DNA from: Klebsiella phage vB_KpnP_BUCT711
DNA length: 38,367 nt
Direction: 5' to 3' (one strand)
Sequence record: OM816836.1
This document shows positions 4,210 to 34,584 of this stretch, in pieces (position 1 is the first letter of the stretch; each line of letters opens with the position of its first letter). The translations under genes and the position numbers were made by a program. A model generated the notes under the pieces. It had not been told where the DNA came from and did not search any database. It saw only the letters and a list, made by a program, of their open reading frames with translations.

Positions 4210-4224
4210 TTACCTTATTGGTAA
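4210..4224. promoter_or_regulatory. operator-like palindrome TTACCttattGGTAA
   Basis: Perfect TTACC-N5-GGTAA 6 bp upstream of the DUF1064 start codon. Confidence 0.6.
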
Positions 4225-4271
4225 TTTATAACCATAAACGGATCAATATCAATAGTCTTGCGCATATTTTA

Positions 4272-4286
4272 TTACCTTTTTGGTAA
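4272..4286. promoter_or_regulatory. operator-like palindrome TTACCtttttGGTAA
   Basis: Perfect site; identical 15-mer to the sites at 6402 and 34570. Confidence 0.6.
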
Positions 4287-4298
4287 ACATTAAGGCGT

Positions 4299-4322
4299 AA
4301 AAAAACGCGCTTCCGCGCTGCG
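4299..4322 (-). terminator. putative rho-independent terminator after the replication gene
   Basis: GC-rich palindromic cluster (GCGC ttcc GCGC / GCGCtGCGC) followed on the minus strand by T7 (plus A-run 4299-4305). Confidence 0.4.
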
Positions 4323-4329
4323 CTGGCTG

Positions 4330-5091
4330 TCAGGGTGCCGGGCCTCCCCGGAATCCCGGCGGGATCTCGGTATCCGGCCTGGATATGGTGTTCACATCTC
4401 GCTGCCCAGAGCCGCCTTTCAGCTCGAACAGCCCTTTCCAACCCTTCGCCATGCTCTGCTTCACAATCTGCATCTGCCTTGTGTGGTTGCCACCAGACAG
4501 GTTAATCAGTTCGGTGATTGCTGCCCCCTCGCTCCGTTCAGTTGGCGCATAGGCTTTAAACCGCATTTCTGACCTGTAGGCCTTCCACTCATCCCAGGCT
4601 TCGGCATTGAGCTGTTCAGGATACGGATAAGATTTTTTTGGCTCCCTCCCCCTTGGGGGGTTAGGGGGGATCTTATCTTTTACTTCTTCTCTTCTCTTCT
4701 CTTCTCTGGTCCGCATTTCGTCCGCATCAGAAGCGGACATTTTGACGACATTTCTCTTAACTCTTTTCCTGTCAGCGTCCTGTGCGCGGCGCTTCGCAGA
4801 CTGACCGTTATGGGCTTCAAAGCGCGGCATTACTAGGCTTTCGCCATCTTCTTCAAGCCATCCAACGGCCATCATCGCCCGGGCAAATCCTGGAAATCCG
4901 ATGAGGTCATCGAGCGTCTCAGGGCTGTAACCGTCAAGAAAACCATCAACAGAATGGACATCAAAAAGACACCATGCGGAATGTAGTCCGCCAACTATCC
5001 GAAGTCTGTCCGCTTTCAATGCGGACGCCATGCGGACAACTTTAGGATGTGTGTGAAGGTCTGCACGCATCTTGATCCAGTCGCCGGCCAT
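4330..5091 (-). CDS. replication initiation / replisome-organizer protein (lambda O-like role)
   Basis: N-term [18 protein letters not shown]... typical of the phage replisome-organizer N-domain; basic/acidic low-complexity linker; internal iteron-like repeats (see findings). Confidence 0.6.
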   Translation of the reverse strand: MAGDWIKMRADLHTHPKVVRMASALKADRLRIVGGLHSAWCLFDVHSVDGFLDGYSPETLDDLIGFPGFARAMMAVGWLEEDGESLVMPRFEAHNGQSAKRRAQDADRKRVKRNVVKMSASDADEMRTREEKRREEVKDKIPPNPPRGREPKKSYPYPEQLNAEAWDEWKAYRSEMRFKAYAPTERSEGAAITELINLSGGNHTRQMQIVKQSMAKGWKGLFELKGGSGQRDVNTISRPDTEIPPGFRGGPAP

Positions 5092-5753
5092 TATTCACCC
5101 CCGGATAATTCATAAAGGGTCAAATTACCGTTAAAAACAGCACCAGTATCGATGTAGAGCTGGTTTTTGTTACGCATTGGCTGAAGCGCTGGAGTGTGTC
5201 CGAAAATGAATAAGTCAGCCCCAGAAATACTGGAGCTAAAGCCATCAATGGATAAACTGATTCGCTCACGACTCCAGATAGCTTGCTGTGAATCTACCGG
5301 CTTACCGTACTCATATTCGTCGTGAGGATAGTCTGCATGGCAGATGACAAACTTCTTACCGCCCTTCTCCACCTCGATGATGAGCGGCAACTCTGCGACC
5401 TTGGGTAGCAGGGATTTCAGGCGCATATCCTGCTCGTAGTCCAGACTGTGCCACCATCCTCCACCATTTGACATCCAGTGCCCAAAGCTACCAGTGCCGG
5501 TTATGGCATCCAGCATCATCTGCTCATGGTTTCCGCGTACTGCCCGGAACCATGGCTGATTTATCAAGTCCAGGCACTCGAAGCTTTCCTGCCCACGGTC
5601 GATCAGGTCTCCGACAGAAACCAGCAGATCCTGCACCGGGTCGAAACCTGCTTTATCTAGACTGCTCATCAGGTTGGTGTAGCAGCCATGCAGGTCACCG
5701 CAAACCAAAACCCGGCGCCATTCTTCGCCATTTATACGCTGATAGATTTTCAT
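5091..5753 (-). CDS. Ser/Thr protein phosphatase (lambda PPase-like metallophosphatase)
   Basis: GDLHG, GDLIDRG and GNHE motifs; 220 aa; ATGA/TAATG coupling with neighbours. Confidence 0.9.
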
Positions 5754-6031: not shown

Positions 6032-6046
6032 TTACCAGATTGGTAT
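6032..6046. promoter_or_regulatory. imperfect operator-like site TTACCagattGGTAt
   Basis: 14 of 15 match; preceded by the conserved extension AATTATTACC. Confidence 0.4.
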
Positions 6047-6099: not shown

Positions 6100-6333
6100 T
6101 TAACGTTCGTGGAACCAGAGGACCAGGTCGGATTTTGCGGAGATCCACTTACGGGATTTGCAGGCTTTAAACAGTCTTTCTAACAGAGGCTTACGTGGAA
6201 TTCTTCTACGGCCAGTCAGGTGAACCTGAATGTAGTGGCTGGTCGTGCCGGCGTCACTTGCGAACTCTTCTCGCTCAGCCGGCGAGAGGTCGAGCCAGCA
6301 GCGTTTGAAGTCAAATTTTTGCACATCGCTCAT
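6100..6333 (-). CDS. Cro/YdaS-like HTH DNA-binding protein (first gene of leftward early operon)
   Basis: 77 aa from ATG at 6333 (MSDVQKFDF...); HTH-like EFASDAGTTSHYIQVHLTGRRRIP; divergent from the repressor across the operator cluster. Confidence 0.6.
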   Translation of the reverse strand: MSDVQKFDFKRCWLDLSPAEREEFASDAGTTSHYIQVHLTGRRRIPRKPLLERLFKACKSRKWISAKSDLVLWFHER

Positions 6334-6371
6334 ATTTTTTAGTCCCGGACTAACTTTAGACAGCCTGATTA

Positions 6372-6386
6372 TTACCAATCTGGTGT
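6372..6386. promoter_or_regulatory. imperfect operator TTACCaatctGGTgt
   Basis: In the divergent immunity intergenic region; left half plus extension ATTATTACC conserved. Confidence 0.45.
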
Positions 6387-6401
6387 AAAAATCAATGACT
6401 G

Positions 6402-6416
6402 TTACCTTTTTGGTAA
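6402..6416. promoter_or_regulatory. operator TTACCtttttGGTAA
   Basis: Perfect palindrome in the divergent cro/repressor intergenic region. Confidence 0.7.
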
Positions 6417-6418: not shown

Positions 6419-6433
6419 TTACCTTTATGGTAA
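6419..6433. promoter_or_regulatory. operator TTACCtttatGGTAA
   Basis: Perfect palindrome, centre 17 bp from the 6402 site (tandem operators). Confidence 0.7.
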
Positions 6434-6486: not shown

Positions 6487-7068
6487 ATGAAAAGCATCTA
6501 CGACATAAGGCGCGACAACCTCAACGAGATAATCCGGAAGGATTTCGATAACACGCAACTCCGGTTTGCCGAGAGAATCAAAAAATCAGCTAACCTCGTT
6601 AACAGGTGGAGCAAGGGAACAAAAAATATCGGCGCTAACGCGGCACGCGAGATCGAGTCGTTCGCCGGGAAAGGTCGGTTCTGGCTGGATATCGACCATC
6701 TGTCAGATACCCCGACGCTGCCGGAGATTATCGACCCGCAGGAATGGAGTGTGGAAAAACAGGCAGCGTTTACCCTGGGTGTATGGATGGGTCAGCATTC
6801 GGATCTGAACTCAGAGAAAAAGGTTTCGGAAGCGGCCGGCATCGGCCAGGCGACCGTAAATCGCATCCTGAACTGCGAAGGCTCCACCAGCATTGGCGTA
6901 CTGTCGGCTATCGCCAGGGCGTTCGGCCGCGATGCATATGAGCTGATCCTGCCGCCTGGAAATGCTGGTCTGATTGACTATGACCACCATGAATACGCCG
7001 GGCTGCCGCAGGAAGAGAAAAACAAGATCGCCGCCTTCATCAAGTTCATCGTCAGCCAGAACCAGTAA
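6487..7068 (+). CDS. prophage repressor candidate with two XRE-type HTH domains and no S24 peptidase domain
   Basis: HTH1 QLRFAERIKKSANLVNRWSKG; HTH2 KVSEAAGIGQATVNRILNCEG. Sits in the cI position, divergent from the cro-like gene, flanked by operator clusters. Weak or absent SD (possibly leaderless). Confidence 0.65.
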   Translation: MKSIYDIRRDNLNEIIRKDFDNTQLRFAERIKKSANLVNRWSKGTKNIGANAAREIESFAGKGRFWLDIDHLSDTPTLPEIIDPQEWSVEKQAAFTLGVWMGQHSDLNSEKKVSEAAGIGQATVNRILNCEGSTSIGVLSAIARAFGRDAYELILPPGNAGLIDYDHHEYAGLPQEEKNKIAAFIKFIVSQNQ

Positions 7069-7123: not shown

Positions 7124-7138
7124 TTACCAAAATGGTAA
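7124..7138. promoter_or_regulatory. operator TTACCaaaatGGTAA
   Basis: Perfect site upstream of the -35 of the rightward (PL-like) promoter. Confidence 0.65.
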
Positions 7139-7159
7139 ACTTTTCCTCATCAAATCTAT

Positions 7160-7188
7160 TGACACAACCATAAATTGATCAGATTATT
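7160..7188 (+). promoter_or_regulatory. sigma70-like promoter for the plus-strand recombination operon
   Basis: -35 TTGACA (7160-7165), 17-bp spacer, -10 GATTAT (7183-7188); overlapped by the operator at 7187-7201. Confidence 0.5.
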
Positions 7189-7201
7189 ACCTTAACGGTA
7201 A
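7187..7201. promoter_or_regulatory. operator TTACCttaacGGTAA
   Basis: Perfect site overlapping the -10/+1 of the promoter above. Confidence 0.65.
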
Positions 7202-7261: not shown

Positions 7262-7275
7262 TTACCAAATGGTAA
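7262..7275. promoter_or_regulatory. operator variant TTACCaaatGGTAA (4-nt spacer)
   Basis: Half-sites perfect, spacer one base shorter; 14 bp upstream of the first small ORF. Confidence 0.4.
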
Positions 7276-12619: not shown

Positions 12620-12634
12620 ATACCGTAATGGTAA
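12620..12634. promoter_or_regulatory. imperfect operator aTACCgtaatGGTAA overlapping ATACCGT repeats upstream of int
   Basis: 14 of 15 match to the genome-wide motif; embedded in 3 direct ATACCGT repeats. Confidence 0.35.
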
Positions 12635-13362: not shown

Positions 13363-13838
13363 GATTCATTTACCGACGCGGAACCGGTCATTAACGGTAA
13401 TTCTCTACCATCCTTCGCCACATTAACCGGCCAACGGTATCCGGTAACCCTTTCCCTGGAAAATGAACGAATGTTAATTGCATCAGACTGGTTCCCGCCA
13501 AGAACCATCAGGTCGCCATTTTTTTTCTTACCGACAACAAATCCGACATGGCCTCCGCCGTCACGGCTGAATACCACCACACAACCATAAGCTGGTTCTC
13601 TAATCTGAACCCCCCAGTTGAGATAGGATTTTGCAGATTCGAAGCGTGTTGATTTAATTCCACTTCGTTCGAGCATTGCACCTACGAATGCGGCGCACCA
13701 TGGCGTTTCATCATCTTTAATCCCACCACGCTTAATGTCTTTCCAGAATTGAATAATCAGTGGGTTATGACGTGGTCCTTTAATTTCCACCTGGCCAATA
13801 TGTTTACGTGCTTCTGTAATCCAGGGTAACTCACTCAT
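13359..13838 (-). CDS. endolysin, TIGR02594-type (probable NlpC/P60-CHAP-like cysteine peptidase)
   Basis: MSELPWITEARKHIG...WCAAFV...GHVGFVV (Cys/His pair) in the lysis-cassette position. Confidence 0.6.
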   Translation of the reverse strand: MSELPWITEARKHIGQVEIKGPRHNPLIIQFWKDIKRGGIKDDETPWCAAFVGAMLERSGIKSTRFESAKSYLNWGVQIREPAYGCVVVFSRDGGGHVGFVVGKKKNGDLMVLGGNQSDAINIRSFSRERVTGYRWPVNVAKDGRELPLMTGSASVNES

Positions 13839-14525: not shown

Positions 14526-14532
14526 ATATGCC

Positions 14533-16964: not shown

Positions 16965-16979
16965 TTACCATTAAGGTAA
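16965..16979. promoter_or_regulatory. operator TTACCattaaGGTAA in the tailspike/moron divergent region
   Basis: Perfect site. Confidence 0.6.
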
Positions 16980-25804: not shown

Positions 25805-25816
25805 AGTCAGCTCCTT

Positions 25817-26314
25817 TTACTTAGCGGAAAGCGGCTTCCAGGTACCGCCCAGCGTCTTGTATGCATTAAGACCGGTCAGCGTGGAGTTGAGCAGTGTTGA
25901 ACCTGCGCCAAGCATTCCGGACTGCTTATCAATTTTCCCTTGCGCTCGGCTGGTATCAGCCTGGAACTGCAGCCCGGCGGCCTGTCGCTGGCCGTTGTTG
26001 ATGGTGGTCAGCGCGTCGAGCGTGCCCTGCTGCATGGTTTCAGTTGTCAGGTCCAATGCGTTACCGCTCGTCAGGTCGGCGCCGTTAGCAGCCAGTGCAT
26101 TGGTTTGCTGTCCGGCAACCCGCCGGGCCTGCTGCCGCTGCTGGTATGCCTGGTCATTAGCTGTATTAATAGTGTCGCGGGCGGCCTGCTCCTGAGCGTC
26201 GGCGTTAGCGTTCGCCAGCGCGGCGTTAGCGCGGCCTGTCTGGATCTGGCTGTAAGCGCTGAGACCGCCAGAGACGGCGGAAACTGCCAGCGCTGCGGTA
26301 CCGACATCACACAT
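25817..26314 (-). CDS. internal virion protein (gp14-like position)
   Basis: 165 aa, Ala/Gln-rich. Confidence 0.45.
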   Translation of the reverse strand: MCDVGTAALAVSAVSGGLSAYSQIQTGRANAALANANADAQEQAARDTINTANDQAYQQRQQARRVAGQQTNALAANGADLTSGNALDLTTETMQQGTLDALTTINNGQRQAAGLQFQADTSRAQGKIDKQSGMLGAGSTLLNSTLTGLNAYKTLGGTWKPLSAK

Positions 26315-26777
26315 GGTCGATCTCCTTCGTAAAGTGGTGAAATGGCATGCCCTTTAATCCGTATGGCTCAGGGTCAGCAAGAGTGAACCCCATCCAGTGA
26401 AGCCAGGATTTTGCTGCGTGGTTACGCGCATCTACGTAATTTTCAAGCACGCGATATCCGCGTGACATGTCACGAAGAACCGGGCGGCAATGGCGGAGGA
26501 ATGTCAGCGGCTGATGCTCAATATGGTCGGTGCTAACCAGCCACGGAATACCTCGTCCGGTGATGATCGATGCAGGAGATATACCGAAGATGGTTACCAC
26601 CTGGCCGTTAATCATCCCTGCAGCGGCTACCGAAGCGCTTTTCATGGCGCGATTAATGACTTCCTCCGGAGTCATCCCAGCGGCAGCCATAAACTCATCG
26701 TGGTCTGCCTGGCGGACATGCGGGAGAATGGCGCAGATATGCTCGTCAGTAACGCTGACTATCTCAACTTTCCGCAT
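26307..26777 (-). CDS. virion protein (gp13-like position)
   Basis: 156 aa; order after the gp12-like gene. Confidence 0.45.
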   Translation of the reverse strand: MRKVEIVSVTDEHICAILPHVRQADHDEFMAAAGMTPEEVINRAMKSASVAAAGMINGQVVTIFGISPASIITGRGIPWLVSTDHIEHQPLTFLRHCRPVLRDMSRGYRVLENYVDARNHAAKSWLHWMGFTLADPEPYGLKGMPFHHFTKEIDHV

Positions 26778-26778
26778 A

Positions 26779-29256
26779 TCAGCCCCCTACCGTTACGCGC
26801 GGTATAATGGCCAGAATGCCAAGCGGCAGCGGATCGGAATGGCTGATTACAACCCGCCCGTTACGCTCCCAGTTTGCATCGAGGTTCATATCGATGATGC
26901 CCGTCTTTAGCCCTACCGGGTCGTCGTAGAATTCCCACTCACGCTGGGTATACTCCAGCAAGTGAGCATCATCTGTTCCGGCCCAAACCGAGCGCCCGCT
27001 GTTGAGCATTACGCAAAGCTGATTGATGAGTTTGGTCTTATCCAGCAGCGTAGACTGCCCTGCAACGTTCACGTCCAGCGTTTCGATAACCGCGGCTACC
27101 GGCAAACCGATATGCACCACTGACGAGTGGTTTTCGATCGTCACTTCGCCGCCTGATACAACCTGCTGAGGTTCAACGTTACCGTCGGCAAGAATGCTAA
27201 CCGTCTGCCCCTCGAGGTGAGACAGTCCCGCAAATGTCCGACGTGCTATCGACCATGTTGATTGCGCAGTGTTACGCAGCGCTGTCGGCACATCACGGTT
27301 TGCTAATACGGTAGCCACTGTTGATGAGATAACACCAGCAATGCTCAAACGCATCGACTTGCTGACACCGCCTTCGGTGTAGGGAATATGAATCTCGTAA
27401 TCAGTGCTCGATGAGTCGAAGATTGCAGAGCTGCATGTTAGCGTGAATTCATCCTGGTAGGTCCAGCCACCGGTGGAACTGATCGTCATTGTGCGTGAAG
27501 AGTCGGTGTTTTCTCCGCTGTAAGACAGGCCAGAATCCACGAAAAATGCATCCTGCTGTTCTGTAAACTGCCTGGTGTTCAGTCGTTCAATATAACGAAC
27601 TGTCGATCCATTCACCGTACGGCGAATAAGCGCATAGACCGCATCTTCCTGCCCTTCGCTAATACTGCAGATCGATTCGACATAGCCATTAGTCATCGGG
27701 TGCGGATGCCAGGCATATACCTGCTGCTCACGGAGATAAGTCAGCCCAAGAAGCATGCCATCACTCCTCGCACACCATGCAACGCTGAACGGCTGTACAG
27801 ACAAGGCCCAGTCCCTGATGCTGTAACCGTTAAACAGATGACTGGCAAGGAGGGTCAGATCACTGGATTGATAGCTGTCCTGGTCAAATGAGTAAAACAG
27901 GTCACGGATGATGGAGCCCTTCTGCTGAACGTACAGTGCAACGCTACCAACGTTGATTGGTGCCAGATCGCTGCTACCGTTGAACGACTGACCGGACATC
28001 GCAAAGCCACCAGTTCCCGTCAGGTTACCGTTGCTGTCGCCTGTCACCTTGAACTCTCCTCCGCTGGTCAGCACGATAAGCTGACCGACATCGAGAAGGT
28101 GCAGGATTTTGTTCAGCTGGCGACCGGCGTAGTTATAGGTGATCGCATCGTCGTCAACCTTCGGGTTGCTGCGATAGAAGTTGTGATAATCACCGGTACG
28201 GCTACACCATATAGTTTGAGGAAATGCCCGGCTGCCGCCGAAAATCAGCCGCTGCTGGTAATAGGTAACTGTACCCGGGTAGCCGTCAGTATCGTTCCAG
28301 GCGTAATGCGCCCATTTGTAAGTGGCGAAGGTGCTACCCACCACTTGCGCCGGCAGCTCGATCTCACCATCCTGACGTGGTACAACGTCGGCCGTTGCAG
28401 TTAGTCCATCTCCGGCGACGGCGGTAATACGGCACACGCCAAAACCACTATGCAGATAACGCCACAGCACACCGTTACGGCCACCAAGACCCCAGCCATC
28501 CCAGGAATCTCCCGTTGTATGGGTAGGAGCAACAGTGCCGGTTGTGCCATTAGAACCGCCGTCAACACAGCGATAAAAGTTCTCCTGATATCGGCACTCG
28601 TCACCGATCCCGATGTCTTTATCGGTTTCCCACCGACCAACACTATCTACCGCTTTCTGTTCCATGTAGAACAGTTTTCCCACGTGCTGGCTTTTGAAAA
28701 TCGGGCTGTTGGCAGTCAACGTTACGGATCCAGTTCGGCCTGAGGCGTACACAGTTACCGAGTCGTCTGTGTTCAGGTCCTGGAATGGCCCGCTGGTTGT
28801 TGTCACTGCGGCGGTGCGCCAGTCAGCCTCTCCGTAACGGCGGATCTCAAGCGGCGGATAATCGTTGTGGCACACTGTCATCACATCGGCAGACTGCGTA
28901 AATTTCAGCTCAGAGATGACGCTCACCGGCCATGGGGTAGCCACTTCAACAGGGCTGCCGCCGTCCGTAACCAGCGCGCCGTTAGACCAGACACGGAAAT
29001 AGTGATCACCGAGCTCGAGCGCATAGGTTTGCGATACGCTGAACTGGAACGGTATTAGCCGGCAGTAACGGTCTGCATATTTCGCGCTCCCCAGGAACCG
29101 GAACCCGGGACGATTTTCAATGCCGCCTGACTGCCGGACGATGAAATTGCGGCAGCGGCGCAATGACGTCTGGTATTTTTCAAGATCGATTCGACCATAC
29201 AGTGAAGGCGATATCTCGCCGCCGGCAAGCGACGGTTGCACCAGTGAATAGGCCAT
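26779..29256 (-). CDS. tail tubular protein B (T7 gp12-like nozzle)
   Basis: 825 aa; N-term MAYSLVQPSLAGGEISPSLYGR parallels T7 gp12 MALISQSIKNLKGGISQQP. Confidence 0.65.
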   Translation of the reverse strand: MAYSLVQPSLAGGEISPSLYGRIDLEKYQTSLRRCRNFIVRQSGGIENRPGFRFLGSAKYADRYCRLIPFQFSVSQTYALELGDHYFRVWSNGALVTDGGSPVEVATPWPVSVISELKFTQSADVMTVCHNDYPPLEIRRYGEADWRTAAVTTTSGPFQDLNTDDSVTVYASGRTGSVTLTANSPIFKSQHVGKLFYMEQKAVDSVGRWETDKDIGIGDECRYQENFYRCVDGGSNGTTGTVAPTHTTGDSWDGWGLGGRNGVLWRYLHSGFGVCRITAVAGDGLTATADVVPRQDGEIELPAQVVGSTFATYKWAHYAWNDTDGYPGTVTYYQQRLIFGGSRAFPQTIWCSRTGDYHNFYRSNPKVDDDAITYNYAGRQLNKILHLLDVGQLIVLTSGGEFKVTGDSNGNLTGTGGFAMSGQSFNGSSDLAPINVGSVALYVQQKGSIIRDLFYSFDQDSYQSSDLTLLASHLFNGYSIRDWALSVQPFSVAWCARSDGMLLGLTYLREQQVYAWHPHPMTNGYVESICSISEGQEDAVYALIRRTVNGSTVRYIERLNTRQFTEQQDAFFVDSGLSYSGENTDSSRTMTISSTGGWTYQDEFTLTCSSAIFDSSSTDYEIHIPYTEGGVSKSMRLSIAGVISSTVATVLANRDVPTALRNTAQSTWSIARRTFAGLSHLEGQTVSILADGNVEPQQVVSGGEVTIENHSSVVHIGLPVAAVIETLDVNVAGQSTLLDKTKLINQLCVMLNSGRSVWAGTDDAHLLEYTQREWEFYDDPVGLKTGIIDMNLDANWERNGRVVISHSDPLPLGILAIIPRVTVGG

Positions 29257-29867
29257 CAGCAGATCCTCGCACTGGCAAGGTCAGACATCGCCTGCTGCGG
29301 TTCATGTGCCTCATCAAGAGAGCGTTGCATGGCCGCCGTAAGCACCTGCTGATAATTGGCCATTGCCTGCTGACCGAGACTGGCATTTGCCGCGATCGGC
29401 ATGGCTATCTCTGCCGCCATACGCCACGAAAGCGCATCAGCGAACAGGGCATCAAACATCGTCGGATCAGTGATGCTTTTCACGTATAGCAGTACCGCCT
29501 GAGACTCATTGGTATGAATGACGCGGCCAGTGCCATCTTCATTGCTGCCAACTTCAAAAACAGGCTTATCCTGCAGAACGATATGAGACCCAGTGAACCA
29601 CTTCGGTAATATGGCAGCTATGCGCGCACAGTCGGTAGGGTACTGATACCGGAACAACCATCCCGGCGCAGGGTCGCCAAGGTCAGCCAGGACAACGCGC
29701 GACATGGCAAAGTTCCAGTCGTTGTCTGCCAGAACTGCGTCGCGCATGGACTCGTAAAACAGGTTGCAGGTATATGCCTCTTTGGTCTTTTCGGTGAGGC
29801 TGTTAATCGTCCGGCTGTTGCCTATACGTGCCAGCGCGATATTACAGATATTGATCACTGATGCCAT
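29256..29867 (-). CDS. tail tubular protein A (T7 gp11-like), start at ATG 29867
   Basis: About 203 aa; SD GGTGGA; the track start is a TTG 12 nt upstream. Confidence 0.5.
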   Translation of the reverse strand: MASVINICNIALARIGNSRTINSLTEKTKEAYTCNLFYESMRDAVLADNDWNFAMSRVVLADLGDPAPGWLFRYQYPTDCARIAAILPKWFTGSHIVLQDKPVFEVGSNEDGTGRVIHTNESQAVLLYVKSITDPTMFDALFADALSWRMAAEIAMPIAANASLGQQAMANYQQVLTAAMQRSLDEAHEPQQAMSDLASARIC

Positions 29868-29880
29868 ATCATCCACCAAC

Positions 29881-29905
29881 TAAAAAGGGGCTTTCGCCCC
29901 TTTGG
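29881..29905 (-). terminator. rho-independent terminator after the capsid gene block (T7 T-phi analogue)
   Basis: AGGGGC gaaa GCCCCT followed by TTTTTA on the minus strand. Confidence 0.5.
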
Positions 29906-29915
29906 TTATGAGGGC

Positions 29916-30194
29916 TTACACCCCGAGTTCTTTTCGCCTTTCGGCGATCTTCGCCTTCAGAGTTTCCGCTTTGGTATTGAAATGCGGCGCTTCGCCGAAC
30001 ATTTCTTCATACTGTTTGCGCAAATCGTCGAGCTCGGTTAACTCTTCTGCACTGGCCGGGACAATCTTTTCGCTCAGGCTGGCATCAACGGAAACCAGAT
30101 TACTTCCCGGCTCACCGTCGTAGGTAACGATGTCACCCGGCTCATGCAGGCGGCCATTGATGAATGACCGCTTAGCGACTTTGTACTCAGGCAT
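29916..30194 (-). CDS. hypothetical head-associated protein
   Basis: 92 aa. Confidence 0.45.
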   Translation of the reverse strand: MPEYKVAKRSFINGRLHEPGDIVTYDGEPGSNLVSVDASLSEKIVPASAEELTELDDLRKQYEEMFGEAPHFNTKAETLKAKIAERRKELGV

Positions 30195-30579
30195 TGGTTT
30201 GCACGCCTCCGGTGATACCGGCAGTGACTTTGCCGGTGGTCGGCGCAGTACCAGTCACCGTATAGTTCAGACGAATGTAGCGTTCCATCTTCATCGGCAA
30301 CGTGATAACCGGCGACTTATAGCCCAGCACCAGAGACGCCAGAGGGATCGTCATGGACAGCACGTCCGCAGCGGAACTGAATGCAGAGTTGTCATCGGTT
30401 TGCACCGTCACAGTCAGGCTGGTAAGGTTATTGAAACCTTCAACCACCTGGATAAGCAGCGGGATATCGCCATATTTACCGACATCTTTATTGCTGCCGG
30501 TATCAATGACGTTGGTCGAAGCAGCCGTGGCCGTAATGGCCTGAGCTGCGGAAAAAAGCGCTTGCTGGTCGAGCAGCAT
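30187..30579 (-). CDS. minor capsid / decoration-like protein
   Basis: 130 aa, Thr/Val-rich beta-like; immediately after the major capsid gene. Confidence 0.45.
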   Translation of the reverse strand: MLLDQQALFSAAQAITATAASTNVIDTGSNKDVGKYGDIPLLIQVVEGFNNLTSLTVTVQTDDNSAFSSAADVLSMTIPLASLVLGYKSPVITLPMKMERYIRLNYTVTGTAPTTGKVTAGITGGVQTNA

Positions 30580-30589
30580 GATCCCCCCC

Positions 30590-31597
30590 TTACGCCGTTA
30601 CGGCTGATTCAGTATTCAGGATGGCGTCAGCGCGACGGATCGGAATACCCAGGAAAGAAACGATTTTCTTACCGGCATATTCGTCGATCGTCAGGTTAAC
30701 GTTTTTCGCATTCATAGCCTGCTTGTGCAGCCAGGCATGGATGGTCTTGTTGCAGTAGATGACCTCTTTACCATCGCCCAGCATTGCGACATCACGCGCG
30801 TAGTACGCATCAACCATCATGCTGATGAGGTCGGCGCCGGTTGCAGCATCTTTGGTCAAGGTGGTGACATCGATGTTGCAGATGCGCGAGATCGAACGCC
30901 AGTCACGGACTGACAGGCCGAGATGCCATTTGAACTCATCACGGTAAGCCAGGAACTGACCGCCGTTCGCATCGCTGACCAGGTCATTACCCAGATCCTG
31001 ATGCTGGAACCCGGCGACCATACCTTCCGGATAGATCATGTGCGCGGTGTTCTCACCCCAGGACATGAACCAGATGGAGGTATTGGTAGAACCACTACCA
31101 CCGGCGCTGAATACGTTCTCCGCGCTGGCCGCTTTGGAAGTGCTCAGAGTGTTGAAGCGCGGAGCCAGGCCCATGAACGCTTCCGGCTCAGCATCGGTAT
31201 TGCCGTAGAAGGTGTAGCGGGAAACCTTGTTGTTAAAGCCCTGCAGCTTGCCCATGTTCTCGGACACGCGGAACGAGTCCGCATTACCGGAGCGATCGGC
31301 CAGGTCTTTGTCCACAAAGCCAAGGTCGTACAGCATACCGGTAGTGTCAGTCACCGGAACGGTCTGGGTTTTGGTAGGCTGCACGCCCTGGTTGTAACGG
31401 CGCCACACCGGCTCGGGAATACCGGCACGAATGGTGGTTTTGTGCTTGGAACCGTCATTACACGGCACGTAAATCGCATCGGTAATGACATCGTTGCTTT
31501 TCGCCAGCTGCTCGACGATTTTAGCGATCCGCCCGTTCTTGTCGGTACGGCTGTACACGTCAAGAAGAGAAGGCAGCGTCTGACCAATTAAAGCCAT
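30590..31597 (-). CDS. major capsid protein
   Basis: 335 aa; position after the scaffold gene; strong SD; gene followed by a terminator two genes downstream. Confidence 0.7.
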   Translation of the reverse strand: MALIGQTLPSLLDVYSRTDKNGRIAKIVEQLAKSNDVITDAIYVPCNDGSKHKTTIRAGIPEPVWRRYNQGVQPTKTQTVPVTDTTGMLYDLGFVDKDLADRSGNADSFRVSENMGKLQGFNNKVSRYTFYGNTDAEPEAFMGLAPRFNTLSTSKAASAENVFSAGGSGSTNTSIWFMSWGENTAHMIYPEGMVAGFQHQDLGNDLVSDANGGQFLAYRDEFKWHLGLSVRDWRSISRICNIDVTTLTKDAATGADLISMMVDAYYARDVAMLGDGKEVIYCNKTIHAWLHKQAMNAKNVNLTIDEYAGKKIVSFLGIPIRRADAILNTESAVTA

Positions 31598-31609
31598 GAT
31601 TACACCTCA

Positions 31610-32287
31610 CTATTTTTTGCTTGGATAAAACGCTTCGACCAGATCGTTTTTCGGCGATCCGTTACCCTGGCCAGTGACGAAACTGTCTTCACTCATCAAC
31701 TTGCCTACCTTTGCGAACGCCCGAACCATTTCCGGGTGATTACCCAGGCCGGTCGAGTCAAGGAATTCGCGGAACTCTTTCGATGCGAAGGTATCCAGCG
31801 CCTTCTGCGCGTGTCCGACGGATACCGTTAATTTGTCGCCACCGATTTCTTTGTCAGCCTTCGTGTCAGCTGCCCACTGTTCAACCTGCTGCCCCCACGA
31901 CTCAGCCTGGCGGTTCTGGATTTGCTCCTGCAGTTGTGGCCACAGTCCAGCCAACTTCTGCGCCTGGTCATTAGAAAGACCAAGCTCGCGCGCCACGGGC
32001 TCAAACAACTCAACAGCTTTTGAGTCCAGCTCAGTGCCTTCAGGTGCCGTTAGTTCATATTTTTCTGGAACCGATGGTTCAGCAGAAGGAGCTGGCTTAT
32101 CGCCAGTCGGCTCAGGTTTATCACCATCAGCTGGCGAAGGTTCTGGATCTACTGCTGGTTGTTGCGCTGCTTCAGATTGCTCAGCCGCAGGAGTCGGGGA
32201 TGGTTCGGATGCTGCTGGAGCTGCTCCACCATCTGCAGGCTGCTCATTGCACAAACGCCGATACATCAGACGCTCAAATAAATTCAT
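31610..32287 (-). CDS. scaffolding protein
   Basis: Starts at internal ATG 32287 (MNLFERL...); acidic Pro/Ala/Glu-rich N-terminal half and helical C-terminal half; between portal and capsid. Confidence 0.6.
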   Translation of the reverse strand: MNLFERLMYRRLCNEQPADGGAAPAASEPSPTPAAEQSEAAQQPAVDPEPSPADGDKPEPTGDKPAPSAEPSVPEKYELTAPEGTELDSKAVELFEPVARELGLSNDQAQKLAGLWPQLQEQIQNRQAESWGQQVEQWAADTKADKEIGGDKLTVSVGHAQKALDTFASKEFREFLDSTGLGNHPEMVRAFAKVGKLMSEDSFVTGQGNGSPKNDLVEAFYPSKK

Positions 32288-32289
32288 CG

Positions 32290-32595
32290 CTATTCCTCGC
32301 TGGCCTCTTTGGCCATTGCCAGATACTGATCGGGACACGCTTCCATCACGTCGGAAAAGACTTTCAGTCCCGTGTTACGTTTTCCTTCGGCGAAGGCTGC
32401 CGAGAGCGCCTCACCGGTATAAGTCGTACGCCACACTCCAGCCTGCTCAATCAGGCGCCAGATGAAACGGCGGCCGTGTTCTGTCTCGCAGATGAGGCGC
32501 AGGTCATTAAGTTCGTTCTCGCGCCGTAACTGCTGCCTTTTGAGCTCATCTGCTGCCAGTTCTTCACGCTCTTCTTCGCTCAGGTAATCAGTCAT
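32290..32595 (-). CDS. hypothetical head-morphogenesis protein
   Basis: 101 aa; coupled to the portal. Confidence 0.45.
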   Translation of the reverse strand: MTDYLSEEEREELAADELKRQQLRRENELNDLRLICETEHGRRFIWRLIEQAGVWRTTYTGEALSAAFAEGKRNTGLKVFSDVMEACPDQYLAMAKEASEE

Positions 32596-34271
32596 TGCGT
32601 CACCGCCGGCTGCTGAGCAGCATCAGAGAGGGTTTTTAACAGGCTAGGGTCAGCGGTGTTGGTATCGCTCAGGGTCTTAGCGGTTGCGCCAGCTTGCTGG
32701 GCCATAGCCATCATCTGCTGCTGTTGTTCCATTTGAGCGCGCTGTTCGCGCGTGGCTTGCACCTCATCATCAGAGTTAACGATCGTGGCCGGGACGCCGA
32801 GCATATTTCCGTACTCGTCAATCGTCTGGTCGATATTGAGTTTGTCGAGCGCCGCAGGATTGGCTTTTGCAAGATTCCCAACAAAGCCAACAAAGCGCTC
32901 AACGCTGCTGATCCCTATGGATTTCTGGGCCTGTGCCAAAATGGAGACATATTCAACTTTCAGAGGAGTGCCCTGCAGTTCTTCCGGTGGCTCAGGAAAG
33001 AGGTTGCGGCGCGCCATGATGTTGAATGTGCGATCAACGAAAGGATCAAGGAATTCATCATTAAGTCGCTCCAGTACTGGACCAAGCTGCAGGAGTTTCT
33101 CATCCTGCATTGCGGCCACAGCCTCCACTGGCATGCTCCTGGTGTTGATGGTGCTGAACAGGTTAAACAGGTCAGAGAAGAAGCAGGCTTCAATCATTTG
33201 GCGGTCATCAGCAATGCTGCCGAGCATGTCATTAAGCTGAGGGCTGACGGCGTAAGCCGGACGCACTAGCTTGGTAGCGTCAACCTCATCAACATAAGTA
33301 ACGCCGCCAGGGGCAAGGTTGATCAGCTTATTTTTAAGACCTGTCGGGGCCACCATTGGCGGGTTAACAAGCTTATCGATCGCGTTAGCTTTGCGAATTT
33401 GCTCCAACTGCAGCGCCTTACCAGTACCGAGCGCCATCATTCCCGGGCAGTTACTCCCGTAAACGTCTTCCCCGTTAATCTCCCAGCGCGGTGAAAGGAT
33501 CGGCGGCTCATCAAAACCAGCCTCACGAAGGAGCTTGTCACCGTCTCCGGACAACTCGAAATACACCGATTTGAATGCCTTGTTGCGGGAGTTCAGCTTG
33601 CCATTCACACGATCGATATTGGGCTCTGTCAGATGGACCACATCGAACCATGCTTCATAGTTCGCGTTATCCCAGGCGCCGCGCACGGCGTTACTGACGT
33701 TGTCCAGGCCAAACTGCATAACAATCTGGCGGGCAGTCATGGAGAAAACGCGATACGTGGTATCGACTGACAAACGATGCGAGTTTGACAGGTAGTAACT
33801 TCCGATCGGCAGAGGATGAGTACGAATCACATCTTCGTCGTCTTCGAGAACCGCCATAGCCGCGGTACCAAAAACACCAAGGTGCCGGTAGATAATCGGC
33901 AGGGACTGGTAGACGTTAGAGCGGTTCATGACGTCGTTCATCCTGGTCATGACCACATCAAGCCAGCGTTTTACCGGTCCATATTGCATCATCTCCGGAT
34001 CCGGCGTTGCCAGCTTAAACCATGGGCGGGTTGGGCTGGTGATACCTGACAGCATGCCTGATTGCAGAGTGCGGGCAGCTTTAGAGGCGGTAGGGTCAAC
34101 GATGCGGGTATTACGCTTGCTGCCGTTGTTTCTCTCCGTCGTAAGAAAGCGCGTGCTGCGCGGATCGATAAATTCCGCCAGTTCGCGCCAGTGCTCCTCA
34201 AAGCTGGTGCGCTCATTTTTGAGCTGCCCCAGGTGTTTGAGGTAATGCTGTTTCGGAGAGAGTTCGGCCAT
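32592..34271 (-). CDS. portal protein
   Basis: 559 aa, precedes the scaffold and capsid genes; size and position fit a portal. Confidence 0.75.
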   Translation of the reverse strand: MAELSPKQHYLKHLGQLKNERTSFEEHWRELAEFIDPRSTRFLTTERNNGSKRNTRIVDPTASKAARTLQSGMLSGITSPTRPWFKLATPDPEMMQYGPVKRWLDVVMTRMNDVMNRSNVYQSLPIIYRHLGVFGTAAMAVLEDDEDVIRTHPLPIGSYYLSNSHRLSVDTTYRVFSMTARQIVMQFGLDNVSNAVRGAWDNANYEAWFDVVHLTEPNIDRVNGKLNSRNKAFKSVYFELSGDGDKLLREAGFDEPPILSPRWEINGEDVYGSNCPGMMALGTGKALQLEQIRKANAIDKLVNPPMVAPTGLKNKLINLAPGGVTYVDEVDATKLVRPAYAVSPQLNDMLGSIADDRQMIEACFFSDLFNLFSTINTRSMPVEAVAAMQDEKLLQLGPVLERLNDEFLDPFVDRTFNIMARRNLFPEPPEELQGTPLKVEYVSILAQAQKSIGISSVERFVGFVGNLAKANPAALDKLNIDQTIDEYGNMLGVPATIVNSDDEVQATREQRAQMEQQQQMMAMAQQAGATAKTLSDTNTADPSLLKTLSDAAQQPAVTQ

Positions 34272-34274
34272 GGA

Positions 34275-34493
34275 TTACGCCCCGAGCAGGGTCTTACCCT
34301 GAGTGCCGCCAGAAGGCTGCGTTACACCCTGGCTCGACGTCAGGATTGTTGATTTCTGCCCACCCGCTGCGGCACGGCGGCGACGATCACTATCAGCGGC
34401 GTTCTGTACAGCAGAATCGGAAACCTGCGGCGCCGCCTGAACCTGCGGAGAACTCACTTTCGGCTTGCTGATGCACATTTTGCTGCGCTCCAT
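34275..34493 (-). CDS. hypothetical small protein
   Basis: 72 aa, Ser/Gln-rich. Confidence 0.4.
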   Translation of the reverse strand: MERSKMCISKPKVSSPQVQAAPQVSDSAVQNAADSDRRRRAAAGGQKSTILTSSQGVTQPSGGTQGKTLLGA

Positions 34494-34569
34494 ACGCGTT
34501 TAAATTATTACCAATTTAACCACATATTATTTATTTGTCGTAGTGTATTGACCTTTTGACGATAAATTA

Positions 34570-34584
34570 TTACCTTTTTGGTAA
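34570..34584. promoter_or_regulatory. operator TTACCtttttGGTAA between portal-side genes and the tRNA
   Basis: Perfect site, identical to 4272 and 6402; a conserved half-site ATTATTACC lies at 34504-34512. Confidence 0.6.

What the first reader, a model, noticed from the sequence alone, without database searches (positions are those of the whole stretch)
4210..34584. Genome-wide 15-bp palindromic operator TTACC-N5-GGTAA in front of most transcription units
I count at least 10 perfect copies, all with an AT-rich spacer and conserved flanks (ATTATTACC / GGTAAT). They lie at 4210, 4272, 6402, 6419, 7124, 7187, 16965, 17377 and 34570, plus one reconstituted across the window ends. There are also a 4-nt-spacer variant (7262) and imperfect copies (6032, 6372, 12620). 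A specific 10-base pattern is expected about 0.04 times in 38 kb. Every copy is intergenic: the immunity region (6 sites), upstream of the DUF1064/nin-like operon, of int, of the tailspike/moron divergent region, of the tRNA island and of TerS. A CI-type repressor normally touches only PL/PR. This spread instead suggests one regulator that silences the whole genome directly. Precedents include the distributed 'stoperators' of cluster A mycobacteriophages and a late-gene activator site. The tandem-HTH repressor at 6487..7068 or the Cro-like protein are the obvious candidate binders.
Basis: seen in the sequence. Interest (0 to 1): 0.8.

Follow-up and report, generated by a model that had tools for sequence, protein, structure and literature searches.

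The report
Known epsilon15-type repressor operators, Klebsiella prophage
The repeated 15-bp palindrome is real and is almost certainly the binding site of the phage's own immunity repressor, placed on or beside most promoters. The same site network is already annotated in the related Salmonella phage epsilon15, so this is a new example of a known system.

Summary
There are ten perfect TTACC-N5-GGTAA copies, nine internal and one across the window junction, against about 0.02 expected. All ten lie in the 7.8% of the genome that is non-coding.

The window is a Klebsiella epsilon15-like (Uetakevirus-like) temperate podovirus. The RefSeq record of epsilon15 already annotates the same palindrome as "protein_bind: repressor, lysogeny". 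Its sites sit at matching positions: before TerS, before gp3/portal, between ant and tailspike, in the immunity region, and before the resolvase/DUF1064 operon.

The 193-aa protein at 6487..7068 is a full-length homologue of the crystallised SPC32H repressor Rep (PDB 5D50). Its antirepressor Ant is at 17054..17314.

The motif is present in 13 of 13 genomes or prophage loci that carry a full-length Rep homologue. It is absent from 6 of 6 loci with only N-terminal similarity.

At five promoters the predicted -10 hexamer ends on the first base or two of an operator. Two of these have a partner site 62-63 bp upstream. Both features are conserved across the genus.

The interpretation as one repressor acting at distributed operators is supported. 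It is not new, and the stoperator analogy does not fit. The imperfect copy at 12620 sits inside integrase arm-site repeats. No binding was tested here.

The parts
4210..4224 (.). Operator at the promoter of the DUF1064/nin-like operon, which is transcribed leftward. It is the promoter-proximal site of a pair.
   Evidence: Perfect copy. The minus-strand promoter TTGATA-18-TAAATT has its -10 overlapping the operator edge by 2 bases. Epsilon15 35969 and SPC32H 36034 have the same geometry.
4272..4286 (.). Upstream partner operator, 62 bp from 4210.
   Evidence: Perfect copy. The 62-bp spacing of this pair recurs in epsilon15, SPC32H, phiV10, Tyrion, TL-2011b, Kp4865-1 and several of the prophage loci; the Scandinavium locus has 61 bp.
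6032..6046 (.). One-mismatch copy (TTACCAGATTGGTAT) between the cro-like gene and the next gene downstream.
   Evidence: PWM score 15.5, above the highest score in the shuffles. Its function was not examined further.
6100..6333 (-). Cro-like small regulator, a homologue of epsilon15 gp39. It is a possible second binder of the same sites.
   Evidence: 65% identical to epsilon15 gp39. It matches PHROG 35, transcriptional repressor. The motif AGTTSHYIQxHLT is invariant across the genus.
6372..6386 (.). Degenerate copy (TTACCAATCTGGTGT) that overlaps an alternative leftward promoter.
   Evidence: TTGATT-16-AATAAT at 6395..6368. PWM score 12.3.
6402..6416 (.). Operator at the PR-like promoter of the cro-like gene. 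It is one of two sites 17 bp apart between rep and cro-like.
   Evidence: Perfect copy. The minus-strand TTAATA-17-TAAACT ends on the operator edge. Epsilon15 33358 and SPC32H 34407 have the same geometry.
6419..6433 (.). Second operator of the rep/cro-like pair. It overlaps the PR-like -10 hexamer and spacer, and also candidate rep promoters.
   Evidence: Perfect copy. The 17-bp pair is conserved in epsilon15, SPC32H, Kp4865-1 and the Klebsiella and Citrobacter prophages.
6487..7068 (+). Rep, the immunity repressor and the proposed binder of the palindrome.
   Evidence: PDB 5D50 (SPC32H repressor), E 2.5e-76 over the full length. 65% identical to epsilon15 gp38. Pfam HTH_3 at residues 109-152, plus a weak N-terminal HTH match. 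NLVNRW at residues 36-41 is invariant in Reps that are 44-66% identical.
7124..7138 (.). Upstream partner operator of the PL-like promoter, 63 bp from 7187.
   Evidence: Perfect copy. The orthologous pairs are 62 bp apart in epsilon15, SPC32H, phiV10, Tyrion and TL-2011b.
7187..7201 (.). Operator on the PL-like promoter of the rightward early operon.
   Evidence: TTGACA-17-GATTAT at 7159..7187 ends on the first operator base. Epsilon15 32555 and SPC32H 33604 have the identical promoter and geometry.
7262..7275 (.). Third PL-side site, with a 4-nt spacer (TTACCAAATGGTAA). It is probably weakened.
   Evidence: It is positionally orthologous to the epsilon15 operator annotated at 32479 (spacings 76 and 75 bp). 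No perfect third copy is found at this position in Kp4865-1 or the K. pneumoniae ATCC 13883 prophage either.
12620..12634 (.). One-mismatch copy just upstream of int. It is ambiguous and lies inside integrase arm-type repeats.
   Evidence: On the minus strand it reads TGACGGTAT-ACC-TGACGGTAT-TACCATTACGGTAT. Epsilon15 annotates GTGACGGTAT as integrase-binding sites at the same place. All three phages keep TTACC-N5-GGTAT here.
16965..16979 (.). Single operator between the divergent tailspike-lysis operon and ant.
   Evidence: Perfect copy. It is orthologous to the annotated epsilon15 site at 19895-19911 and to SPC32H 20013. It lies about 70 bp upstream of both candidate start sites and not on a -10 hexamer.
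17018..17033 (.). LexA-box-like sequence in front of ant, with one deviation from the consensus.
   Evidence: ATGTATATATATACAG on the plus strand, which reads CTGTATATATATACAT on the other strand. It aligns with the perfect boxes of epsilon15 and SPC32H.
17054..17314 (+). Ant, the small antirepressor that is expected to release Rep from all sites.
   Evidence: 65% identical to SPC32H Ant. It matches PHROG 450 and PHROG 1760, anti-repressor.
17377..17391 (.). Operator on the promoter of the rightward genes 17443..18247, which include a DUF2335 membrane protein.
   Evidence: TTGACG-16-TAAGAT at 17350..17377 ends on the first operator base. There is no counterpart in epsilon15 or SPC32H. Kp4865-1 has two sites in the corresponding part of its genome.
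34570..34584 (.). Operator upstream of the gp3/portal structural operon. It lies in the divergent region with tRNA-Arg.
   Evidence: Perfect copy. It is orthologous to the annotated epsilon15 site at 2931-2947. A conserved half-site, GGTAAT fused to an AATAAT -10-like hexamer, lies exactly 62 bp downstream in both the window and epsilon15.
38364..38367 (.). First four bases of the operator in front of TerS. The site continues at window positions 1..11.
   Evidence: The junction copy is TTACCTTTTAGGTAA. It is orthologous to the annotated epsilon15 site at 12-27.
1..11 (.). Remaining eleven bases of the TerS operator.
   Evidence: On the minus strand an extended -10, TGgTATTAT (19..11), ends on the first operator base. 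Epsilon15 and SPC32H have TG-n-TACTAT in the same position.

Best explanation
The palindromes are the operators of the phage immunity repressor Rep (6487..7068). Rep belongs to the epsilon15 gp38 / SPC32H Rep family.

Proposed mechanism (inferred). Rep is reported to act as a tetramer whose N-terminal HTH domains pair up to read palindromic DNA. Each pair would read one TTACC-N5-GGTAA site.

Site placement, as seen in the sequence with predicted (unmapped) promoters:
- At five promoters the -10 hexamer ends on the first base or two of an operator. These are the DUF1064/nin-like operon, the PR-like promoter, the PL-like promoter, a DUF2335 gene pair and TerS. A bound Rep would cover -10 and +1 and exclude RNA polymerase.
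- At PL and at the DUF1064 promoter a second operator lies 62-63 bp upstream, about six helical turns. The second DNA-binding pair of the same tetramer could bind there cooperatively.
- The portal-operon site and the tailspike/ant site lie upstream of their promoters. They probably act through weak promoter-proximal half-sites or through looping.

Consequence (inferred). In a lysogen, one protein directly shuts the early, replication, lysis/tailspike and packaging/structural operons.

Induction (inferred by homology). Rep has no S24 cleavage domain. Induction should come from the small antirepressor Ant (17054..17314), made from a LexA-box promoter. Ant would pull Rep off all sites at once.

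What is shown and what is inferred. Shown here: the sites, their statistics, their synteny, their co-occurrence with Rep and their geometry relative to predicted promoters. Inferred: physical binding, looping and the real start sites.
For: - Ten perfect copies against 0.02 expected. All ten lie in the 7.8% of the genome that is non-coding, P about 8e-12.
- A PWM built from relatives recovers only intergenic sites above background.
- The epsilon15 RefSeq record annotates the same palindrome as 'protein_bind repressor/lysogeny' at seven sites with matching synteny.
- Rep matches PDB 5D50, E 2.5e-76, and is 65% identical to epsilon15 gp38. Ant is 65% identical to SPC32H Ant.
- Secondary literature reports that SPC32H Rep binds palindromic DNA as a tetramer, that it has an N-terminal DNA-binding domain, and that Ant disassembles it (PMC9638917; PMC9986798).
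- The motif is present (4-11 copies) in 13 of 13 genomes or loci with a full-length Rep. It is absent from 6 of 6 loci with only N-terminal-domain similarity.
- The site spacings of 61-63 bp and 17 bp are conserved in all of them.
- The -10 hexamer abuts an operator at five window promoters. The same holds at the four orthologous promoters of epsilon15 and SPC32H.
- The putative recognition helix NLVNRW is invariant in Reps that are only 44-66% identical. This fits the invariant half-site.
- Pfam finds no S24 peptidase domain in Rep.
Against: - No binding data could be obtained here.
- The three primary papers (PMC2698709, PMC3807360, PMC4983836) are not held. I could not confirm whether the epsilon15 'repressor' sites were footprinted or only predicted, nor which DNA was used in the SPC32H work.
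- PMC9986798 states that the structural mechanism of repression by Rep has not been extensively characterised.
- The Cro-like protein is co-inherited with Rep and equally conserved. Co-occurrence therefore cannot tell the two binders apart.
- Promoters are consensus predictions, not mapped start sites.
- The sites at 16965 and 34570 do not overlap a predicted -10 hexamer.
- The two DNA-binding ends of the tetramer are reported to be about 100 A apart. 62 bp of straight DNA measures about 210 A, so bridging a pair would need a sharp bend.
Confidence: 0.85

Rival explanations
1. The sites are mainly, or also, the targets of the Cro-like protein (6100..6333). It would use them during lytic growth to turn down early and immunity transcription, as lambda Cro shares operators with CI.
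For: The Cro-like protein is 65% identical to epsilon15 gp39. It matches a 'transcriptional repressor' PHROG. Its motif AGTTSHYIQxHLT is invariant across the same phages that keep the half-site invariant. It always co-occurs with the motif, because it is part of the same module.
Against: The epsilon15 record assigns the sites to the repressor and to lysogeny. A Cro-type protein has no obvious reason to bind at the TerS, portal and tailspike promoters during lytic growth, when those operons must be on. A 77-aa protein has no domain for bridging the conserved 62-bp pairs. This rival is compatible with the main explanation and does not exclude it.
Confidence: 0.3
2. The palindrome is the site of a transcriptional activator of late or lytic genes. 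A candidate is the gp49-like regulator at 439..777.
For: Sites precede the TerS, portal and tailspike operons. At 34570 and 16965 the site lies about 60-70 bp upstream of candidate start sites, a position typical of activators. The TerS promoter has an extended -10 but no good -35.
Against: The same site covers -10/+1 of strong early promoters, such as TTGACA-17-GATTAT at PL. That position is repressive. Six to seven of the copies cluster around rep and cro-like. Epsilon15 labels them as repressor sites.
Confidence: 0.05
3. The repeats are not protein operators of the phage. They could be a host-factor site, a restriction-modification or packaging signal, or small RNA hairpins or terminators.
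For: A 5-bp stem with a 5-nt loop can fold, at -3.5 to -4.7 kcal/mol. The phage group encodes DNA methyltransferases.
Against: The hairpins are weak and have no T tract. Several copies lie upstream of any start site. Strict intergenic placement, fixed phasing and placement on -10 hexamers are not expected for restriction-modification or packaging sites. The motif follows the Rep module across Klebsiella, Salmonella, Escherichia, Enterobacter, Citrobacter, Erwinia, Scandinavium and Superficieibacter hosts. It is absent from the six fetched loci that lack a full-length Rep.
Confidence: 0.03

Closest known systems
Repressor-binding sites of Salmonella phage epsilon15 (gp38), as annotated in RefSeq NC_004775, and the Rep-Ant switch of Salmonella phage SPC32H (PDB 5D50/5D4Z)
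   Same: The palindrome is the same, (A)TTACC-N5-GGTAA(T). The sites occupy the same syntenic positions: TerS, gp3/portal, ant/tailspike, three on the PL side, two between rep and cro-like, and two before the resolvase/DUF1064 gene. The 62-bp and 17-bp spacings match. The -10/operator geometry matches. Rep, the Cro-like protein and Ant are each 65% identical to their counterparts.
   Different: The host is Klebsiella and the genome is mosaic; the nearest records are 96-97% identical over about 60% of the 21.6-kb second half searched (16800..38367) and 95-96% identical over about 36% of the first 25 kb. The third PL-side site has lost one spacer base. There is an extra operator at 17377, on a promoter for genes absent from epsilon15. 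The ant LexA box deviates at one conserved position. A LexA-controlled UmuD'-like gene is inserted just upstream of the TerS operator.
Phage P1 C1 repressor with operators scattered over the genome, plus antirepressor-based induction (from my own knowledge of the P1 literature, not checked here)
   Same: It works in a similar way. One immunity repressor acts at many dispersed operators that overlap the promoters of separate operons, and it is inactivated by an antirepressor rather than by self-cleavage.
   Different: P1 operators are asymmetric 17-bp sites, and C1 is an unrelated protein. P1 late genes are controlled indirectly through a C1-repressed activator. Here the operators sit directly in front of the packaging and structural operons. 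Membership was not tested; this is an analogy only.
   Same: The binding sites of one repressor are distributed over the whole genome.
   Different: From general knowledge, stoperators are asymmetric 13-bp sites, number about 20-30 or more, lie within transcription units in one orientation, and act by blocking elongation. Here the sites are symmetric, number 10-14, lie strictly in intergenic regions, and mostly sit on or just upstream of promoters.
Lambda-type CI/Cro switch with OL and OR
   Same: rep and cro-like genes diverge around clustered operators. There are three sites on the PL side and two to three on the PR side.
   Different: There are further operators at five or more other promoters. 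Rep has no S24 self-cleavage domain and has an antirepressor partner. It is reported to be a tetramer with a p53-like tetramerisation domain.

Membership tests
epsilon15-like (Uetakevirus) Rep operator network | A 15-17-bp palindrome (A)TTACC-N5-GGTAA(T), repeated about 8-11 times per genome | tested here: met
   The window has ten perfect copies. Epsilon15 has 11, SPC32H 10, phiV10 8, Kp4865-1 10, Tyrion 9 and TL-2011b 10.
epsilon15-like (Uetakevirus) Rep operator network | A full-length Rep homologue with an N-terminal DNA-binding domain, a middle dimerisation domain and a C-terminal tetramerisation/Ant-binding domain | tested here: met
   The match to 5D50 runs over residues 1-192, E 2.5e-76. 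The protein is 65% identical to epsilon15 gp38. The domain names come from PMC9986798.
epsilon15-like (Uetakevirus) Rep operator network | Sites at syntenic positions: TerS, gp3/portal, ant/tailspike, PL side, rep/cro-like, and resolvase or DUF1064 | tested here: met
   Every class of site annotated in epsilon15 has a counterpart in the window. The pair spacings of 62-63 bp and 17 bp are conserved.
epsilon15-like (Uetakevirus) Rep operator network | A small antirepressor Ant, divergent from the tailspike gene and under a LexA box | tested here: met
   Ant is 65% identical to SPC32H Ant. The LexA-box position is conserved, but the box reads CTGT-N8-ACAT, which is one deviation from the consensus.
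epsilon15-like (Uetakevirus) Rep operator network | Physical binding of Rep to the palindrome, and repression of the adjacent promoters | not testable with these tools
   Only indirect evidence is available: the epsilon15 annotation, secondary reports that Rep binds palindromic sites as a tetramer, and the promoter-overlap geometry.
Cluster A mycobacteriophage stoperators | Asymmetric sites that depend on orientation | tested here: not met
   The sites are perfect inverted repeats.
Cluster A mycobacteriophage stoperators | Sites located within transcription units, away from promoters, where they block elongation | tested here: not met
   All ten sites are intergenic. Five abut a predicted -10 hexamer.
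Cluster A mycobacteriophage stoperators | A repressor of the L5 gp71 family | not tested
   No direct comparison was made. Rep's best structural relative by sequence is SPC32H Rep.
Lambda-type CI repressor system | A C-terminal S24 peptidase domain that RecA stimulates to self-cleave | tested here: not met
   Pfam finds only HTH_3/HTH_26 and a weak YdaS-type match in Rep.
Lambda-type CI repressor system | Operators confined to OL and OR | tested here: not met
   Perfect sites also occur at 4210/4272, 16965, 17377, 34570 and 38364.

The most novel reading that the evidence does not exclude
The conserved architecture may be the physical basis of a one-protein, one-step switch.

- The architecture consists of an operator abutting the -10 hexamer, plus a partner exactly 62-63 bp upstream. 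At the portal promoter a conserved half-site lies exactly 62 bp from the perfect site.
- Each Rep tetramer would clamp a promoter in a tight micro-loop of about six helical turns. Ant would open every loop in the genome at once, so no separate late-gene regulator would be needed.
- The half-site and both regulators' putative recognition helices are invariant across Reps that are only about 45% identical. Either all these phages share one immunity specificity, or specificity is read from the spacer. The spacer is 4-15% G+C in the window/epsilon15 group and 26-40% G+C in the phiV10 group.

I could not determine whether these points are already described in the primary papers, which are not held.
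Probability: 0.3. Interest if true: 0.45.

Novelty: new member of a known kind. Interest (0 to 1): 0.25.

Why it matters
The result gives a direct functional map of the regulatory layout of a Klebsiella pneumoniae prophage. It identifies which promoters the immunity repressor probably holds shut, which protein holds them, and which small SOS-linked antirepressor should release them. That is useful for predicting inducibility and for engineering Klebsiella phages, for example by deleting rep or its operators to obtain lytic derivatives. The conserved 62-bp phasing offers a simple, testable case of promoter clamping by a tetrameric repressor. As a discovery it is incremental, because the same distributed operator is already annotated in epsilon15 and the repressor-antirepressor pair has been crystallised from SPC32H.

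Tried and rejected
- Primary papers. I tried to read the epsilon15 genome paper and the two SPC32H papers (PMC2698709, PMC3807360, PMC4983836). None is held. A search for the motif string found nothing. I relied on the RefSeq annotation and on secondary citations instead.
- Terminator or RNA-hairpin reading. Rejected: the stems are 5 bp, fold at -3.5 to -4.7 kcal/mol and have no T tract.
- Stoperator reading. Rejected on symmetry, number and placement.
- Late-activator reading. Rejected because the site covers -10/+1 of early promoters.
- The 12620 copy as a clear Rep operator for int. Downgraded: it overlaps TGACGGTAT repeats that epsilon15 annotates as integrase sites. The TTACC-N5-GGTAT form is, however, conserved in three phages, so dual use remains possible.
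- One-mismatch hits at 78 and 9300. Both lie inside genes and score low, so they are treated as chance.
- A 62-bp partner for 16965, 17377 and 38364. None was found. A conserved GGTAAT half-site fused to the tailspike -10 hexamer lies about 49-50 bp from 16965, which does not fit the phasing.
- Separating Rep from the Cro-like protein by conservation. This failed, because both have invariant helix motifs.
- Files for some loci (L003, L005-L007) did not appear in the script folder. The PWM was therefore built from epsilon15 and SPC32H only.

Full report

Yes. One hundred dinucleotide-preserving shuffles give a mean of 0.02 copies and never more than one. Joining the window ends gives a tenth copy, TTACCTTTTAGGTAA, at 38364..38367 plus 1..11. 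The window is therefore a circular or permuted genome.

The 5-nt spacer is exclusive. Spacers from 0 to 11 nt give no other hits except the 4-nt variant at 7262. With one mismatch allowed, four more hits appear. Two of them, 6032 and 12620, are intergenic. The other two, 78 and 9300, lie inside genes and look like chance.

A weight matrix built only from epsilon15 and SPC32H sites ranks the ten perfect window sites first. The next hit is 6448 (score 9.2, also intergenic), after which scores fall to 5.8 or less.

With a gene model supported by family matches and synteny, 7.8% of the genome is non-coding. All ten perfect sites lie wholly within it, which has a probability of about 8e-12. The ORF at 34527..34874 overlaps one site but has no family match.

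Four small corrections apply.
- The extended flanks are only partly conserved.
- The "tRNA island" is one tRNA-Arg.
- The copy next to int is ambiguous (see section 4).
- Eight of the 13 intergenic regions of at least 40 bp carry a site, or nine of 14 when the 15-bp end stretch holding part of the junction copy is counted.

**2. What is the genome?**

The window is a temperate podovirus of the epsilon15 type.
- The first 25 kb matches Klebsiella prophages and phages (ST11-OXA245phi3.2, Kp4865-1) at about 96% identity over part of the length. It matches Salmonella SPN1S, SPC32H and SPN9TCW at about 79%.
- The second half searched (16800..38367) matches Klebsiella phages ST512-KPC3phi13.3 and Kp4865-1 at 96-97% identity over about 60% of that stretch.

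Gene content and order match epsilon15 in the reverse orientation:
- TerS and TerL, portal and capsid;
- tailspike followed by the lysis genes, then integrase;
- a RecET-type early operon;
- rep and a cro-like gene;
- replication genes, then a DUF1064/nin-like operon.

**3. The sites are already annotated in the type phage.**

The RefSeq record of epsilon15 (NC_004775) carries seven features labelled "protein_bind, repressor, lysogeny". They lie:
- before TerS (12-27);
- before gp3/portal (2931-2947);
- between gp19 and the tail fibre gene (19895-19911);
- at three positions next to the repressor gene gp38 (32479-94, 32554-70, 32616-32);
- before the resolvase gene (35906-22).

Their sequences are all (A)TTACC-N5-GGTAA(T), and epsilon15 has 11 perfect copies in total. 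SPC32H has 10 and phiV10 has 8.

Every site class has a counterpart in the window.

| Site class | Window | epsilon15 |
|---|---|---|
| Before TerS | 38364 | 12 |
| Before gp3/portal | 34570 | 2932 |
| Between ant and tailspike | 16965 | 19896 |
| PL side | 7124, 7187, 7262 | 32617, 32555, 32479 |
| Between rep and cro-like | 6402, 6419 | 33358, 33341 |
| Before DUF1064/resolvase | 4210, 4272 | 35969, 35907 |

The spacings are also conserved.
- The DUF1064/resolvase pair is 62 bp apart in all seven complete phage genomes and in five of the six prophage loci; the Scandinavium locus has 61 bp.
- The PL-side pair is 62-63 bp apart (61 bp in the Scandinavium locus).
- The rep/cro-like pair is 17 bp apart wherever it is present.

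**4. The copy at 12620.**

On the int-sense strand the sequence reads TGACGGTAT-ACC-TGACGGTAT-TACCATTACGGTAT. Epsilon15 annotates GTGACGGTAT repeats at the same place as integrase-binding sites. All three phages compared keep a TTACC-N5-GGTAT variant here, so dual use cannot be excluded. It should not be counted as a clear operator.

**5. Who binds?**

The protein at 6487..7068 matches the full-length SPC32H repressor (PDB 5D50) with E 2.5e-76. It is 65% identical to epsilon15 gp38 and 45% identical to the phiV10 repressor. Pfam finds HTH_3 at residues 109-152 and a weak N-terminal HTH match. It finds no S24 peptidase domain.

Secondary literature summarises the SPC32H work as follows (PMC9638917; PMC9986798).
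- Rep has an N-terminal DNA-binding domain, a middle dimerisation domain and a C-terminal tetramerisation domain.
- Rep binds palindromic DNA as a tetramer. The DNA-binding pairs are drawn from different dimers.
- A tetramer of the antirepressor Ant takes Rep apart.

The window encodes Ant at 17054..17314, 65% identical to SPC32H Ant. It sits in the same place, divergent from the tailspike gene.

*Comparative test.* A tblastn search finds Rep in only 36 phage records, and all but one weak partial hit are epsilon15-like enterobacterial phages. The motif is present in every genome fetched that has a full-length Rep.
- Complete phage genomes: the window, epsilon15, SPC32H, phiV10, Kp4865-1, Tyrion and TL-2011b carry 8-11 copies each.
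- Prophage loci found in bacterial genomes, within 5 kb of rep: Klebsiella, two Citrobacter, Scandinavium, Erwinia dacicola and Superficieibacter carry 4-7 copies each.
- Six loci with similarity only to the N-terminal domain have none.

In an alignment of six Reps that are 44-66% identical, NLVNRW (residues 36-41) is invariant. This fits the invariant half-site.

The Cro-like protein (6100..6333) is 65% identical to epsilon15 gp39. It is just as conserved, with AGTTSHYIQxHLT invariant. Conservation alone therefore cannot exclude it as a second reader of the same sites.

**6. How it most likely works.**

*Promoter overlap.* Consensus promoter scans place a -10 hexamer so that its last base or two are the first base or two of an operator at five promoters.

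| Operator | Predicted promoter | Strand | Drives |
|---|---|---|---|
| 7187 | TTGACA-17-GATTAT | + | PL-like early operon |
| 4210 | TTGATA-18-TAAATT | - | DUF1064/nin-like operon |
| 6402 | TTAATA-17-TAAACT | - | cro-like gene (PR-like) |
| 17377 | TTGACG-16-TAAGAT | + | genes 17443..18247 |
| 38364 | extended -10, TGgTATTAT | - | TerS |

The first, second, third and fifth of these geometries recur at the orthologous sites of epsilon15 and SPC32H. A protein bound there would cover -10 and +1, which is the classic position for excluding RNA polymerase.

*Partner sites.* At PL and at the DUF1064 promoter a second operator lies 62-63 bp upstream, just beyond the -35 element. That is about six helical turns. 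I infer that the second DNA-binding pair of one tetramer binds there cooperatively.

*The portal promoter.* The perfect site at 34570 lies about 60 bp upstream of a conserved AATAAT -10-like hexamer. A conserved GGTAAT half-site fused to that hexamer lies exactly 62 bp from the perfect site in both the window and epsilon15. This looks like the same pair with a degenerate proximal member.

*The tailspike/ant site.* The site at 16965 lies about 70 bp upstream of both divergent candidate promoters. It has no partner in phase, so its mode of action is unclear.

*Induction.* The ant promoter carries a LexA-type box at the position conserved in epsilon15 and SPC32H. Since Rep has no self-cleavage domain, induction is expected to run from the SOS response, through loss of LexA and synthesis of Ant, to release of Rep from all operators. 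This chain is inferred by homology. I recall the LexA control of ant from the abstract of Kim and Ryu (2013), but I could not re-read that paper.

**7. Rivals considered.**

- A late-activator site is unlikely, because the same sequence sits on early promoters in a repressive position.
- RNA hairpins or terminators are unlikely. The stems are 5 bp, fold at -3.5 to -4.7 kcal/mol and have no T tract. Several copies also lie upstream of any start site.
- A host-factor or restriction-type site does not fit the strict intergenic, phased, promoter-abutting placement. It also does not fit the way the motif follows the Rep module across eight host genera.

**8. Comparison with known systems.**

This is a member of the epsilon15/SPC32H Rep-Ant system. 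All sequence-testable defining features are met, and only physical binding could not be tested.

- It works like the phage P1 C1 network, in which many dispersed operators are combined with an antirepressor. This comparison is from my own knowledge. The proteins and sites are unrelated.
- It is not like cluster A stoperators, which are asymmetric, numerous and intragenic, and which block elongation.
- It differs from the lambda system in having operators outside OL and OR, and in lacking an S24 domain.

**9. Novelty and score.**

The phenomenon is already annotated in epsilon15, and the repressor has been crystallised from SPC32H. The window adds a Klebsiella member with four small differences.
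- The third PL-side site has a 4-nt spacer.
- There is an extra operator at 17377.
- The ant LexA box is a variant.
- A LexA-controlled UmuD'-like gene is inserted before TerS.

The conserved 62-bp phasing and the abutment of the -10 hexamer are clear and testable. I cannot tell whether the primary papers already describe them. Interest is 0.25.

Noticed in passing
window 34..425 (minus strand): A perfect LexA box, TACTGTTTAAATATACAGTA (core at 384..399), overlaps the promoter of a 109-aa UmuD'-like gene at 363..34. The protein starts at the GFPSPAADYVEQ motif, as if it were already processed. The gene ends 18 bases before the -10 hexamer (16..11) of the predicted TerS promoter, whose operator starts at base 11. 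Epsilon15 has an annotated terminator at this place, and no AT-rich LexA-box-like sequence was found near it. SOS-induced read-through into the terminase operon is conceivable.
   Followed up: partly
window 17018..17033: The LexA box in front of ant reads CTGTATATATATACAT on the ant-antisense strand, so CAG has become CAT at a conserved position. Epsilon15 and SPC32H have perfect boxes. The spontaneously lytic variant SPC32N differs from SPC32H by CTG to CTT in the other arm of this box. The window phage may therefore have leakier Ant expression.
   Followed up: partly
window 7262..7275; Kp4865-1 (L005) and K. pneumoniae ATCC 13883 prophage (L009): The third PL-side operator has a 4-nt spacer in the window. 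No perfect third copy is found at the orthologous position in the two Klebsiella relatives. Epsilon15, SPC32H and the Citrobacter prophages keep a perfect 5-nt-spacer site there. This looks like a lineage-specific weakening of one operator.
   Followed up: partly
operator spacers in the window, L001-L003 and L005-L007: The half-sites and the putative recognition helices of both Rep and the Cro-like protein are invariant across phages whose Reps are only about 45% identical. Spacer composition differs by group: about 4-15% G+C in the window, Kp4865-1 and epsilon15, against about 26-40% in phiV10, Tyrion and TL-2011b. The phiV10 group also has one site between rep and cro-like instead of two. 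This may bear on immunity specificity or cross-immunity.
   Followed up: partly
window 17350..18247: The genes at 17443..17778 (PHROG 10654, function unknown) and 17699..18247 (DUF2335 membrane protein, 'moron' category) sit behind a promoter covered by an operator. They would therefore be off in a lysogen, which is unlike a typical lysogenic-conversion moron.
   Followed up: no
window 4633..4670: A G/C-rich inverted repeat, TCCCCCTTGGGGGGTTAGGGGGGA, lies inside the replication-initiator gene (4330..5091). It could be an origin element or an internal structure.
   Followed up: no
window 34900..34976: A single tRNA-Arg (anticodon TCT) lies on the strand opposite the structural genes, in the 406-bp gap upstream of gp3/portal. 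SPC32H has a tRNA-Arg in the equivalent gap, but epsilon15 has none.
   Followed up: no
window 12862..16866: The lysis cassette (membrane protein/holin, holin, endolysin, Rz-like spanin) directly follows the tailspike gene on the same strand. No O-antigen conversion genes lie between them, unlike in epsilon15, SPC32H and phiV10.
   Followed up: no
window 38337..38364 (plus strand); epsilon15 (L001) around position 12, minus strand: A good promoter-like match, TTGGCA-16-AATAAT, points away from TerS and ends on the other edge of the TerS operator. Epsilon15 has CTGGCA-16-AATAAT in the same position. It may be a by-product of the symmetric operator flank or a real antisense promoter.
   Followed up: no
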